From Octopus vulgaris (lineage: Eukaryota), in contig OX597836.1 of NCBI GenBank assembly GCA_951406725.2, forward strand, positions 28,582,001-28,646,000: a DNA stretch of 64,000 nucleotides. The letters are read 5' to 3'. The position numbers and the translations under genes were made by a program. The notes beneath the pieces were generated by a model. That model was not told the DNA's origin, did no database searches, and worked only from the letters and a program-made list of their open reading frames with translations. Position 1 is the stretch's first letter. Each line of letters starts with the position of its first letter. Below are positions 36,801-45,800 of this stretch, in pieces.

Positions 36801-39800
36801 AGAAGACAACAGTAGCAATAGCAACAACAACAACAGCCAAATACAATTGTCTTACTTGTTTTATCAACAATCCAGCCACGCATTGCTAACACATTCACAA
36901 ATGCAGCTGCTGTACCATTGGGTGCACTGCAGAGCGGATAACCAAAACTGACCACACCAACCAGTTCAAAGCGGCCGTAACTGTTTCGACAGACCAGTGG
37001 TCCTCCACTGTCACCCTGCAATGTAAAGAGAAAGATATGGATGATTCGTGGTTGAGTGTAAGAGATATGGGAAACTGAATATTAAAAGAGATGGCAGAGG
37101 TAGTGGAGGTAAAGAAGGATGGAAAAGAGGAAGAACAATAGGAGAGAATTGGGGAAAACTGAGGAAGAGGGAGAGAAAGTAAAAGAGGAGGAGAAAAATG
37201 AAGGAAGCAGAGTTGGAGTAGATCCAGATGAGAAAGAGGAAGAGCAAGAGGAGAGAGTTAGGAAAAAATGAGGAAGAGAGAAAGAAATCAAAAGAGGAGG
37301 AGGACGACGAAAATGAGAAAAGCAAAGATGGAGAAGATTCAGAAGAGAACAAAGAAGGGGAAAAAAAAACCTACTAATGAGGTATATTTGTTTATTTGTG
37401 ATGATTATTTTCTTTAACAAAAGATTAACTGTAACAAGATTATCATCATGGCCATCATCATCATCATCATCATCATCATCATCATCATCATCATCAGTAA
37501 TAGAAACAACTACCACAACAACTAAATGACATACAAAAATCAAACAAAAATTATAACAACAACAAAGATATAATGAACATGACACTCTGGTATTTATGGC
37601 TATCATACCAAGAGTTGGCCTTCCCTATTTTCTTTTTTGTCCTTTCTATAGTGTTCCATGACTTGTTCCTATAGAGTGGGCAAATCCCATTCCTATCATT
37701 ACATAATATATTATCAAATTTTTTCATGGCTCCTTTGTATACTCTGATCCTTTCTTTATGGCTGTAACCTGAGAACTGCATGCGGTGAATGAAATATTGT
37801 ATGTGTCTCTTTAACTCTGTAGGCTCACACATGCGTGACACATTTCTCAATATTCTGACGAGGTCTGCCATCAAAATATTGAATTTGGCATTGTCCGCAA
37901 TGGCTGAGTTCCGGTGGATCAAGTATTTTGAGGCCATAGGTTTGGCATAGTATGATATAATGACTGTACACTCTTTATCAAAGTAGACTTCGTACATCAG
38001 GAATCATGGTTATATATATATACGTATATATATGTGGATTGGACCTGGTCTTGTTCATATTATGGCTGATGTGTAACCACACAACAGAGACCAGAATGAC
38101 AACAATAATGAGAAAACATAGCTGGTACTTACATAACAACTGGGCATGTTGGGATAATTATGTTTGAAACAAATGATGGAAATATTAATTTTGTAGAACT
38201 TCTCGCACTCTTTATTATCCACTACTGTCACTTTGGCTTCTTGGAGATGGTTTTGGGTAATCACTGCAACATTTATAAATATATAAATGATTATATATAT
38301 GTGCTATATTTCAGATGGTCATTTTTTCTTGCTAATTAAACTCATGCACTATATATTCATTCTTCACTTGTTTATTATTGTTCTTATTTTATGTTCATTG
38401 TCTGGAAATCTTTCATCACACACCTGTGACCTCTTCAAGAACTCTCCATCCCATGTCTCCTCCTGTTCTGTTTAAGCCACTTTCTCTTTCTATGGTGTGT
38501 ATCCTTATCTGTCCATGTATTTACATCTGTATCTGTGTGTGTCTTGTGTGTGTTTTGTTTGTGTATAAAGGGGTTTGCTTACTATACTGTTTGTATCCAT
38601 GCCCTTTATATAGTTTTTTTCATTTAGTCACTTATTCATCTCTCAATTTTTTTCCCCATTTCATCTTAAGTATGTGTATCTTTTGTGTGTGTATATATAG
38701 ATTTATGTATTATACCGTTTGTATCTGTGTCTTTTTCCCTCCCATTTTGAATTTTAATCATCATGTTGACTAGTGTGGTGGTGGTGGGTGTTATTGTTCC
38801 ATTTGTGTTTTCAGTTGAAGTTTGGTCAGTCTATTACTATGTGTGTGGCTTCAGTAATCTAAATGCTGTGTCTGTTCTTTGCATTGATAATACCTTAATC
38901 TCTATGTTACTAACCAAACCTCTATGTTCTAATTGAGCATGTTGGTAGAACATTGACAAACTTCTCTCCTCTTTGGAGTTCCTGCCAATATTCACCAATC
39001 TGCTTCCCTATGCTATATGCTGTCGCCCCAGTGAAAGTTGTTGTCTTGTTTCTACACCACTCCTCAGTACACTGTATGCTATAGACAACATTCCTAATCT
39101 TGCAGTTAACCTGTGGGTTCTACATAAATACTGTACAGTTGTTCTCCATCCATGGGGTCCTATTGAATGGATACGTTCTACAGATCAGGGATTTTAGGGG
39201 GATCCTAGCCTTTCTACAACTTCAAACCATAGGTTTACCATATCTAATGTTTTCCTAAAAAGACATGCTAGTTTGCTGACAGGTGTAGCATCAATGAACA
39301 TGACACTCTGGTATTTTTGGTTGTCAAACCATGATTTGTCCTAAGCTATCTTCTTGGTTCCTTTGTACATTCTAATCTTGTTCCATTGGCTGTAGCCAGA
39401 GAACTGCATGTTGCATGTGGTGGATGAAGTGTTGTGTATATATATATATATATATATATATATATATATCAAGAAGAAAATGGAGGGGATCCAGAGGTAG
39501 TATGCATCAACAGTTAGACATTATATTATATTCTTTTATTTGTTTTAGTCATTTGACTGTCACCATGCTGGAGCACCGCCTTTAGTCGAGCAAATCGACC
39601 CCAGGACTTATTCTTTGTAAGCCTAGTACTTATTCTATCAGCCTCTCTTGCTGAACCGCTAAGTGACGGGGACATAAACACACCACCATCAGTTGTCAAG
39701 CGATGTTGGGGAGACAAACATAGACACACAAACATATACATAAATATATATATATATATGACAGGCTTCTTTCAGTTTCCATCTACCAAATCCACTCACA

Positions 39801-42800: not shown

Positions 42801-45800
42801 AAGGGGAATATTACTTGTTTCACATTTAGACTCAAGGCCAATTTTGTGAGGTGAGGAGTTAGTCAATTCTGTTGCCCCTACTACTTTACTAGTTCTTTAT
42901 TTTACAACCTTTCTGATACAGGGCAATTTGAGTAACTTCCAAAATCCAAGATCTTTCTGAACATCAAGAGCAAATATCCTCTCCAACTGTCAGACTCTGA
43001 CTTACAGGTTTACACTTAGAACAGTCACTACTCTTACTCGTTTTCAATAAATTCACTCAAGAACAGCACCTCCCACTCCAAACACGCTCAAAGGAAACTT
43101 TGAAAAAAATCAGTAAAGACTCTACCAAAAAGGAAAATGTCTGTCTTCCGAACTTTCAGCCTCAACCACCACACAGCATCTTTCATTATGGCCACCATAC
43201 AGAGGAAAACTGCTTACCCTGACCGGTTAAAGGAGAGTAATTGCTCAATTGTCACGATGGACTTGGCTGATAAGCAGATCCATCCCATGCCTTATAGCGG
43301 CTGTTTGATATAACTTCACAAATCAGCAATGCTTGGGACATTGAAAAAGTGTGTATATGGGATGGATCTGTCATTTTGTATGCATTTCAAACAGGCCAAT
43401 GTGCAGACACTTCTATGCCCTTGGAGTTTATCTTGGACAAGTAACACTTTTTAGTGCTACATTGGTTTAAGAAAAATTATCAGTTGCAATTTCTGATCTG
43501 AAAGTCCTATAGAACAGACAAGCCAATTTGTTTTCCTTGGTGCCAAGAGTTACTCAAAAAACGTTGCCACATCTCCCACTACTACTAATCTTCTATAGAT
43601 TGCCAGAGTGGAACACCCACCAATCCTACTGCTTGACTGATAGCGATGAGTGAGCACTTGCAAGTATTCTAGATAATCTCAAGCTTTGCATCACTGAGGA
43701 TTATAGTTCTATCAATGGCATGAGTTGCAGAAAGTGCCCACACAAAAAAGGCTTGGATTACTCTGCTACCCCCAAGGCATAAAAAGTGTCTTGCCTTGGA
43801 TTCGCCAGTCTTGCCACTCACATCCACCTTTTGATAAACACGCAAAAAGGGAACACCTCACTCTCTACCTGCATCTTTCTCTTCAAGTGGAACTTAAAGA
43901 AGCTGATGAGAGTTGGATTTGTCCTACACAAGACAGAAACTGTTTGATACAAGCTGGATTAATCCTATACTCAAAAGCAGTTGCTCCATATGATACTTCA
44001 AATCTCTAGTACACAGACACTGAATGATAGTGTGCAAGATGGTTTTGTTCCCTGCGCACATCTTATTTCTTTACTGCCCACAAGGGGCTACACACAAAGG
44101 GGACAAACAAGGACAGACAAACGGATTAAGTTGATTATATTGAGCCGTGTGTAACTGGTACTTATTTAATCAACCCTGAAAGGATGGAAGGCAAAGTCGA
44201 CCTCAGTGGAATTTGAACTTAAAATGGAGCGGCAGATGAAATACTGCTAAGCATTTCGCCCGGCATGCTAATGTTTCTGCCAGCTTGCCACCTTTCTCGG
44301 CACACATCTTGGACTGGTTCAGCTGTTGGCTTTTCCATGCTTGCAGAGCTTATTGTGAATAGGTATTTTGCCCCTGTTGTACTAACATATCAAGGACTTT
44401 TGGAAGTTATCCACAGTCCCTGACCTGAAAAATTTCTCTAATAATAATGGAATAAAGGAAAAGTTTTATACTTACATTACACAGTGTGCTGCAGTGATAC
44501 ACCACCTTGTACTCTTAATTGTCACACCACAGATAAATTTACCATTCCTCAATAGCATACCTTGCCAGGGATATTCTGCAAATAGTGCTTGGGCACCATA
44601 CTGAACAAACTTGGCGACGGAAGTCATGGATTTAGGTTGTTTACCACACTCTGTAGAAGAAATGTCTTACAATCACATGCATGAATCATACAAATATATA
44701 TATATATATATATATATATATATATATATATATATAAATGATAAGGAGACAAAGAAAATTCTTTAACACATCTTAAATGTAATGATTCATTACAATTGTT
44801 TCTGTACCAACTCTAGTTGGTATGCTAGGTTATGCAAAGATTTTAAGTGAAAATTATCATAATGTAAATATATATTTATATATGTATGTGTGTGTGTATA
44901 TATATATATATATATATATATATATATATACACATATATATATACAAGACAACATAAAACAGAATGGAGAATTATACCTCTTCAAAATTTATTTATTATA
45001 GTATTCATTCACATTAAATCCACATTTCATTCATATTAGATTTCAGTTTTATATGTTCCCTTTCTTTCATTTTATTTGGTTAGCCAGAACCCAGATTATA
45101 TCACAGCACTAATAGGATACTCGCCCAGATTCCAAATCCCTATTCTTTTACATTACACACATATATACTTATACACACCTGCGTATGCGTGTGCGCAAAC
45201 ACACACACACAAACACACACATGCATATATATATATATATATATATATATATATATATAATAAAATTAGGGAGTAAATCCAAACTTACAGGGAAAAATTA
45301 GAATTAGGATTAAATCAAATTTCACAGTATGAATATAAATTAAATTAGAGATAAAACCACTATCGGTCAAATCAAACAGTGAAAAACATAAACCAAAACA
45401 TAGAAATAAATATAATATAAAATATATAAAATATACATATATATGTATATATATATATATATATATATATATATATATATATATATATATATATATTAAT
45501 AACATCAAAGGGTAATCTGAAATATTAGAAATTTCCATTACCAGTGGCCTAGCATGTAAAAAATTTAGTCAATAGACTATATATTATTCATATACATACA
45601 GTGTACATTTAAACACAAAAGAGGTAGCCATCATAGGACTACCTGCATGCTAGAGAGGACAGTTAAATTCCAAACCACTATTAGGGATAAAATTTCAAAT
45701 GGAATGAAAAATAAAAACATTTACCATCTCTAGCGTGCAGGTAGTCCTATGATGGATACCTCTTTTGTGTTTAAATGTACACATTATTTACTTATATATA

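What the first reader, a model, noticed from the sequence alone, without database searches (positions are those of the whole stretch)
36856..44650. Phe-P1 activation site paired with a non-tryptic S1 pocket: candidate self-activating protease
Seen: counting back from YPWQ puts the mature N-terminus at VQYG, preceded by Phe (AKF|VQYG) instead of Arg|IVGG. The sequence before the catalytic Ser is P-S-C-Y-G-D-S, giving Pro at 189, with Gly216 (SFG) and apparently Ala226. The triad and canonical disulfide Cys residues are intact. Established: Asp189 confers trypsin specificity, and insect modular serine proteases autoactivate after a hydrophobic residue. Inference: chymotrypsin-like specificity matching its own activation site, as expected of a cascade initiator.
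Basis: partly seen in the sequence, partly recalled or inferred. Interest (0 to 1): 0.7.

Follow-up and report, generated by a model that had tools for sequence, protein, structure and literature searches.

The report
Octopus two-protease membrane protein, phenylalanine-activated
This stretch encodes the first of two protease units in a very large octopus protein that is predicted to be membrane-anchored and is found in skin mucus; both units are predicted to be switched on by a cut after phenylalanine instead of the usual arginine, and the second unit, rather than this one, is the likelier maker of that cut.

Summary
In detail: four spliced minus-strand exons give AKF|VQYG, an intact triad, Pro189, Gly216 and Ala226. 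This is the internal domain (PD1) of an ~220-kb Octopus vulgaris gene: TM-SEA-mucin-LDLa-MAMx5-LDLa-SRCR-LDLa2-SRCR-like-PD1-LDLa-MAM-LDLa array-Frizzled-LDLa-SRCR-like-PD2. PD2, 41-47 kb left of the window, also has Phe at P1 (QKF|IIGG), with a more ordinary non-tryptic pocket (Thr189/Gly190/Gly216). Aromatic P1, Pro189 and the catalytic segment are kept in 5 of 5 PD1 orthologs, so PD1 is probably a working non-tryptic enzyme. The match does not show self-activation: 0 of 6 Pro189 paralogs have aromatic P1; 7 of 12 related internal domains keep aromatic P1 with no Gly216; 7 of 39 other octopus proteases have Phe/Tyr at P1. Annelid, nemertean and brachiopod proteins share the multi-domain layout and an orthologous C-terminal domain. 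Best reading: PD2 likely cuts both Phe sites (0.38); PD1 self-activation stays open (0.25), since PD1-only relatives exist. No description found in ten paper searches. [quoted passage not shown]

The parts
44476..44650 (-). PD1 exon 1: Cys1, activation site K-F|V-Q-Y-G (bond between 44607 and 44606), Cys42, His57, Cys58
41189..41451 (-). PD1 exon 2: Asp102, Cys122, Cys136, S-G-W-G
   Evidence: (PF00089 E 8.5e-11)
38133..38263 (-). PD1 exon 3: Cys168, Cys182-Phe183-Lys184 (in place of C-A-G), Pro189 (38144-38142), Ser190, Cys191, Tyr192
36856..37015 (-). PD1 exon 4: Gly193-Asp194-Ser195, Cys201, Ser214-Phe215-Gly216, Cys220, Ala226; ends in a phase-1 donor, no stop
46867..49799 (-). Three exons of the SRCR-like domain before PD1 (49799-49677, 47915-47811, 46905-46867); a skin-mucus peptide spans the last two
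   Evidence: SRCR_2 hit in ortholog P0020
51383..53901 (-). Two LDLa exons upstream of the SRCR-like domain
56805..57244 (-). SRCR domain, two exons
60296..60409 (-). LDLa exon that follows MAM5 (MAM1-5, mucin stalk, SEA and TM exons lie beyond the window's right end, up to G000:C23:28756712)
35441..35548 (-). LDLa-like exon directly after PD1; joined to PD1 exon 4 in contigs
32202..34323 (-). MAM6, two exons (34323-34180, 32564-32202)
   Evidence: (PF00629 E 4.1e-9)
666..31120 (-). Array of single-LDLa exons (31120, 26494, 22624, 11993, 10050, 5643, 4153, 2476, 1626, 836); it goes on beyond the window's left end to a Frizzled domain and to PD2 at G000:C23:28540502-28535086

Best explanation
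The stretch is the internal protease domain (PD1) of a giant, predicted membrane-anchored octopus protein with two protease domains; PD1 is likely an active enzyme for hydrophobic residues, and it is likely switched on by a cut after Phe made by the protein's own C-terminal domain (PD2). Shown: the exons, the residues, the continuation of the frame, TM and SEA exons upstream, PD2 downstream with QKF|IIGG and Thr189/Gly190/Gly216/Asn226, and peptides of the N-terminal half in skin mucus. Inferred: the protein sits on the epithelial surface, is shed at the SEA domain, PD2 matures first (in cis or between neighbouring molecules), then cleaves AKF|VQYG; Val16 pairs with Asp194 and PD1, held by the Cys1-Cys122 bond, works with a reshaped Pro189/Ala226 pocket on a substrate not known, in mucus or matrix.
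For: Layout: (TM exon E 8.8e-17 to P0018). One model holds both domains (P0133). Both sites are K-F| in O. vulgaris. PD2 keeps IIGG, C-A-G and Gly216 and is 98% identical between two Octopus species against 86% for PD1. C-terminal domains of Owenia, Tubulanus, Lingula and Octopus form one clade (SH-aLRT 98, quick tree), 5 of 5 rows with aromatic P1 and Gly216; 0 of 12 related internal domains have Gly216 though 7 of 12 have aromatic P1, which calls for another activator there. PD1 activity: triad, Gly193, Asp194 kept in 5 of 5 orthologs at 57-86% identity; trypsin fold in the model of P0001 (TM to targets about 0.8). Six spectra, five peptides in skin mucus (PMC10138644 supplement; placed).
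Against: No activity was measured. Six of six full-length members of the P0018 cluster end at the same residue, two LDLa after MAM6, with no PD2; the second O. vulgaris model ends in the Frizzled domain (P0015); mollusc 'corin-like' models with one internal domain also lack PD2. No contig laid spans PD1 to PD2, and RefSeq models of two other Octopus species split the gene. PD2 has oddities (Lys215, Asn226; Glu193 in Owenia). Octopus PD1 belongs to a Pro189 clade apart from the internal domains of the non-mollusc proteins, so their pattern need not carry over. Pro189, Phe183/Lys184, Gln17/Tyr18 and Glu56 (3 of 5 orthologs) may weaken PD1.
Confidence: 0.38

Rival explanations
1. PD1 activates itself: its uncharged open pocket takes its own Phe and it starts the cascade.
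For: Aromatic P1 in 5 of 5 orthologs and in the chiton member; Gly216 open, unlike the 12 related internal domains; PD1-only proteins with F|VQYG exist. The C3 paralog pair with Ile at P1 has Val216, a hint of co-variation. Several TTSPs autoactivate (PMC10376093, passages); ModSP autoactivates and is called chymoelastase-like (PMC10732536, passages).
Against: 0 of 6 Pro189 paralogs with a C-terminal domain have aromatic P1 though 6 of 6 have Gly216; aromatic P1 is common in the wider family and in octopus; no characterised Pro189 enzyme turned up.
Confidence: 0.25
2. PD1 is a poor or zymogen-like enzyme, or a binding module that kept its triad; PD2 does the catalysis.
For: Departures at activation-domain positions: Gln17, Tyr18, Phe183, Lys184, Pro189, Ala227, Val44. 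Pro189 has no backbone NH to pair with residue 17 (the pairing is recalled, not found). KLK10, with Pro190 and Ala226, is zymogen-like with a distorted pocket (PMC5551965, passages and section 8). One Pro189 paralog has Val193.
Against: Invariance is highest at the catalytic segment (15 of 15 and 15 of 16 columns against 119 of 243); Val/Ile16, Gly19 and aromatic P1 are kept in 5 of 5.
Confidence: 0.2
3. An unrelated chymotrypsin-like protease of skin or mucus activates both domains; the Phe sites only reflect an octopus activation network that is largely non-tryptic.
For: Only 7 of 39 readable sites in other O. vulgaris S1 genes have Arg/Lys; 7 have Phe/Tyr, 10 His, 9 Asn/Gln. Enteropeptidase and corin are activated by other enzymes (PMC10376093).
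Against: Aromatic P1 goes with non-Asp pockets throughout this family, whereas 118 of 132 readable Asp189 domains in the same set have Arg/Lys; a candidate activator lies in the same chain.
Confidence: 0.15
4. A trypsin-like enzyme cuts at K|FVQYG, one residue earlier.
For: Lys precedes Phe at both sites in O. vulgaris.
Against: P2 is His, Asn, Pro, Asn in the other 4 PD1 orthologs; Phe at position 15 as N-terminus would be out of register with Gly19.
Confidence: 0.02

Closest known systems
Type II transmembrane serine proteases (enteropeptidase, corin, matriptase)
   Same: N-terminal TM, SEA, LDLa, MAM, Frizzled and SRCR modules before an S1 domain tied by Cys1-Cys122; best PDB sequence match is enteropeptidase 7wqx (E 5.5e-40); Fz-LDLa-SRCR-like-protease at the C-terminus recalls corin.
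   Different: Two S1 domains, one internal; six MAM and over 25 LDLa; Phe at both activation sites; no Asp189. The review read describes TTSPs as trypsin-like with a C-terminal protease domain (PMC10376093, passages).
Insect Nudel
   Same: Transmembrane region, LDLa repeats and two S1 domains (PMC4676143, passages).
   Different: Nudel has no MAM array in that description; its first domain is trypsin-like and its second inactive (recalled). Here both triads are intact and neither pocket is tryptic. No named Nudel was in my trees.
Insect modular serine proteases (ModSP, Ms-HP14, Tm-MSP)
   Same: LDLa repeats, non-tryptic specificity, autoactivation as cascade initiators (PMC10732536, passages).
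   Different: Secreted, single C-terminal domain, triggered by pattern-recognition proteins; other layout. Homology beyond the S1 and LDLa folds was not tested.
Uncharacterised lophotrochozoan LDLa/MAM multi-protease proteins (Owenia CAH1772368.1, Tubulanus XP_074657056.1, Lingula XP_013421045.1; mollusc 'corin-like' models; Liolophura XP_064597468.1)
   Same: LDLa/SRCR-like-protease-LDLa(-MAM)-LDLa array-protease layout, aromatic or Met P1, non-Asp 189; PD2 in one clade with their C-terminal domains.
   Different: Their internal domains have Ser/Thr/Ala189 with Val/Met/Phe/Ala216; cephalopod and chiton PD1 have Pro189 with Gly216.
Kallikrein-related peptidase 10
   Same: A proline in the S1 wall (Pro190) with Ala226, read as allowing aliphatic P1 (PMC5551965, section 8).
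   Different: KLK10 keeps Asp189 and is a single secreted domain; an analogy only.

Membership tests
Peptidase S1A (chymotrypsin family) | S1 domain by profile and fold | tested here: met
   PF00089 E 6.3e-40 in P0015; Foldseek to FXIa, kallikrein, chymotrypsin, TM about 0.8 for the model of ortholog P0001
Peptidase S1A (chymotrypsin family) | His57, Asp102, Ser195, Gly193, Asp194 and canonical disulfide Cys | tested here: met
Peptidase S1A (chymotrypsin family) | Measured proteolytic activity | not testable with these tools
   no assay
Type II transmembrane serine proteases | N-terminal cytoplasmic tail and single TM segment | tested here: met
   full-length ortholog P0018; matching exon 130 kb upstream of PD1 in the own genome, E 8.8e-17; its splicing to the rest was not shown in O. 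vulgaris
Type II transmembrane serine proteases | Stem of SEA/LDLa/MAM/SRCR/Frizzled modules | tested here: met
   Pfam SEA, MAM, LDLa, SRCR; Frizzled read by eye from the Cys pattern in P0015/P0133
Type II transmembrane serine proteases | C-terminal protease domain | tested here: inconclusive
   met by PD2 in P0133; PD1 is internal; the P0018 cluster has PD1 only
Type II transmembrane serine proteases | Trypsin-like pocket (Asp189) and Arg/Lys activation site | tested here: not met
   Pro189 and Thr189; Phe at both sites
Insect modular serine proteases (ModSP/HP14) | Secreted protein with one C-terminal S1 domain after LDLa and Sushi modules (layout recalled) | tested here: not met
   TM, SEA, MAM, two S1 domains; no Sushi hit
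Insect modular serine proteases (ModSP/HP14) | Autoactivation on pattern recognition | not testable with these tools
   needs protein work
Nudel | TM, LDLa repeats and two S1 domains | tested here: met
   Nudel layout from PMC4676143
Nudel | Orthology of the protease domains | not tested
   no named Nudel among the rows

The most novel reading that the evidence does not exclude
An old lophotrochozoan family of membrane proteases carries a protease cascade inside one polypeptide: an aromatic-specific C-terminal domain activates itself and then one or two internal domains of other specificity, and in molluscs the internal domain has evolved a Pro189 pocket not described for any characterised S1 enzyme.
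Probability: 0.3. Interest if true: 0.68.

Novelty: new variant of a known kind. Interest (0 to 1): 0.45.

Why it matters
Described membrane-anchored serine proteases are trypsin-like and activated at basic residues. A surface protease with two non-tryptic domains, activated after aromatic residues and kept from annelids to octopus, would extend the family and give a simple system for asking whether a cascade can run within one chain. Pro189 removes a backbone NH in the wall of the S1 pocket; if PD1 is active, it tests which parts of the zymogen-to-enzyme switch are dispensable. The protein is in octopus skin mucus, so a role at the epithelial surface can be tested.

Tried and rejected
1) K|F cleavage: the Lys is not conserved. 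2) Stand-alone C-terminal protease: the frame goes on. 3) ModSP membership: layout differs. 4) Pro189 as a sign of Phe specificity: paralogs have Asn/Ser/Thr/Ile at P1. 5) Search for full-length relatives above 2688 aa found 10 proteins, none an ortholog; the 3279-aa model came only from the cluster look-up. 6) The AlphaFold model (P0001, 9 sequences, mean pLDDT 62.6) confirms the fold but gives no pocket geometry; the activation segment and 217-224 loop had pLDDT under 50. 7) No RNA holder is listed on record; in run X1 the exons had no cover; neither is evidence. 8) No PD1 or PD2 peptide was found in the held part of the mucus supplement; the file was cut when stored, so this says nothing; the supplement of PMC11431876 could not be read and may bear on expression. 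9) Paper searches for Pro189/P189 enzymes, for the family and for the 17-189 backbone pairing gave nothing to the point. 10) A squid light-organ 'corin' (PMC10329180, passages) could not be tied to this gene. 11) Earlier findings of the scan: none bears on this. 12) The place of Tegillarca P0102 (Pro189, F|VING, Asp226) differed between the two quick trees and is left open.
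Full report
Observation. They give AKF|VQYG, TAAHC, SDIAL, P-S-C-Y|G-D-S-G-G-P across a phase-0 intron, S-F-G and Ala226. Alignment to enteropeptidase puts Pro on Asp189; matriptase and plasminogen rows fix 225-228. Ten canonical Cys and one extra are present.

Context. Exon 4 ends in a phase-1 donor and the frame continues into LDLa and MAM exons. In 3 of 4 runs laid (three studies; RNA status is the tool's guess) one contig joins exon 4 to that LDLa exon and runs on into exon 3. 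The window is G000:C23:28582001-28646000; a named Octopus vulgaris record lies on a contig of the same length. Its 3279-aa model P0133 maps exon by exon over 150 kb. That model lacks the 5' end: an unnamed full-length ortholog (P0018) begins with a cytoplasmic tail, TM, SEA and a Thr/Pro-rich stalk, and the own genome has the matching TM exon (E 8.8e-17), three SEA exons with a G-S-L-I-V motif (self-cleavage motif recalled; SEA autocleavage mentioned in PMC9663175, passages) and a mucin-like exon. The gene spans about 220 kb: TM-SEA-mucin-LDLa-MAMx5-LDLa-SRCR-LDLa2-SRCR-like-PD1-LDLa-MAM-LDLa array-Frizzled-LDLa-SRCR-like-PD2-stop, with about 23 LDLa between the domains by pattern count. Five peptides (six spectra) of this protein stand in the held part of an O. 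vulgaris skin-mucus proteome table (PMC10138644: passages; supplement rows; file cut when stored); all five lie N-terminal of PD1.

The second domain. PD2 (G000:C23:28540502-28535086) reads QKF|IIGG, TAAHC, PDIAM, C-A-G, Thr189-Gly190-Cys-Tyr-G-D-S-G-G, S-K-G, Asn226, then a stop. It is about 30% identical to PD1, and 98% identical between O. vulgaris and O. bimaculoides against 86% for PD1.

Conservation of PD1. In 5 of 5 orthologs (57-86% identity; two Octopus species, Argonauta, two unnamed records) P1 is Phe or Tyr, the new end is [VI]-Q-[YF]-G, and the triad, Pro189, Ser190, Tyr192, S-F-G and Ala226 are kept; P2 varies. Residues 189-203 are invariant in 15 of 15 columns, the strand through Cys220 in 15 of 16, the whole domain in 119 of 243. 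That points to a constrained active site. Odd features are kept too: Phe183 and a non-Gly 184, Gln17, aromatic 18, and Glu56 in 3 of 5. Pro189 stood in 14 of 267 domains in the first set (12 are redundant PD1 rows) and 7 of 256 in the second; every named carrier is a mollusc, two carriers of the second set are unnamed, and both sets were seeded with this protein. Searches found no paper on a Pro189 S1 enzyme.

Does the pocket match the site? Three controls weaken the inference. (a) In the Pro189 clade (12 rows, SH-aLRT 96, quick tree of 40 rows) the six paralogs with a C-terminal domain have Asn, Thr, Asn, Ser, Asn, Asn at P1, all with Gly216; a duplicated pair on C3 has Ile with Val216, which does fit co-variation. 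(b) A related clade of 12 internal domains (brachiopod, nemertean, annelid, bivalves, gastropods, one O. vulgaris paralog) has no Gly216, yet 7 of 12 keep Tyr/Phe at P1; a filled 216 narrows the pocket (established for elastases, recalled). (c) Of about 64 first-exon hits of PF00089 in this genome I fetched 40 as short stretches, leaving out PD2, four C3 paralogs treated apart and mostly tandem copies; 39 were readable: Arg/Lys 7, Phe/Tyr 7, His 10, Asn/Gln 9, others 6 (L048 reads Leu by another register). In favour: across the LDLa/MAM family aromatic or Met P1 goes with non-Asp pockets, while 118 of 132 readable Asp189 domains have Arg/Lys. These counts are not independent of kinship.

An old layout. 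Owenia (two domains), Tubulanus (three) and Lingula (two) have the same plan. Their C-terminal domains group with octopus PD2 (98), 5 of 5 rows with aromatic P1 and Gly216; the Owenia one has Glu193. This is why PD2 is my first choice as activator. Against it, 6 of 6 full-length members of the P0018 cluster end without PD2, one O. vulgaris model ends in the Frizzled domain, and no contig that I laid reaches from PD1 to PD2.

Mechanism. Shown: sequence, splicing of one junction, layout, conservation, presence of the N-terminal half in mucus. Inferred: surface location, shedding, cut at F|V, insertion of Val16 against Asp194 (the salt bridge is described in PMC5551965, passages), hydrophobic P1 preference, PD2 as activator. 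Odds: PD2 activates PD1 0.38; PD1 activates itself 0.25; PD1 weak or non-catalytic 0.20; outside activator 0.15; cut at Lys 0.02.

Known kinds. [quoted passage not shown] It resembles Nudel in having two domains (PMC4676143, passages); orthology was not tested. ModSP is an analogy for autoactivation only (PMC10732536, passages; the hydrophobic P1 of its own site is recalled, not seen). Shifts of S1 determinants at 189, 216 and 226 are well known (PMC7914634, passages). [quoted passage not shown] Verdict: new variant of a known kind, interest 0.45.

Noticed in passing
L046-L084 (first exons of other S1 genes in G000): His stands at P1 in 10 of 39 readable activation sites and Asn/Gln in 9: octopus protease activation looks largely non-tryptic.
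   Followed up: partly
L086-L093, L102, L107, L110-L114 (G000:C3:78.5, 79.0, 79.4, 144.65 Mb): Four Pro189 paralogs; the one at 79.4 Mb has MAM/LDLa exons and a C-terminal domain; the pair at 78.5/79.0 Mb lacks Cys201 and has Val216; the one at 144.65 Mb has Val193.
   Followed up: partly
L005/L061/L094 (G000:C23:23.51 Mb): A second internal-domain mosaic protease on the same chromosome (P0179, M|IVGG, Ala189, Val216), grouping with mollusc 'corin-like' proteins.
   Followed up: partly
G000:C23:28672077-28672145 (window +90077..90145): A 23-codon near copy (91%) of the end of a MAM4 exon lies in an intron of MAM2 and is not used by model P0133.
   Followed up: no
G000:C23: about 28689400-28690200 (window +107400..108200): Mucin-like exon with 16-residue Thr/Ser-rich tandem repeats, each with an N-F-T glycosylation site; missing from P0133.
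   Followed up: no
window 44476-44650: PD1 has an extra Cys at 52 in both Octopus species; Ala56 here and in P0020 is Glu in the other three orthologs, and Glu56 was seen only in PD1 rows (10 of 231 His motifs).
   Followed up: partly
window 36240-36725: A repeated element in the intron after PD1, very deep in all four runs laid; probably a SINE (not tested).
   Followed up: no
window 37551-38003 (-): A 150-codon open frame in the intron between PD1 exons 3 and 4 that looks like a retroelement remnant (impression, not tested).
   Followed up: no
P0001, P0132, P0134, P0133, P0015: Public models split or truncate this gene and give it four different names; those from Octopus lack the TM-SEA start.
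   Followed up: yes
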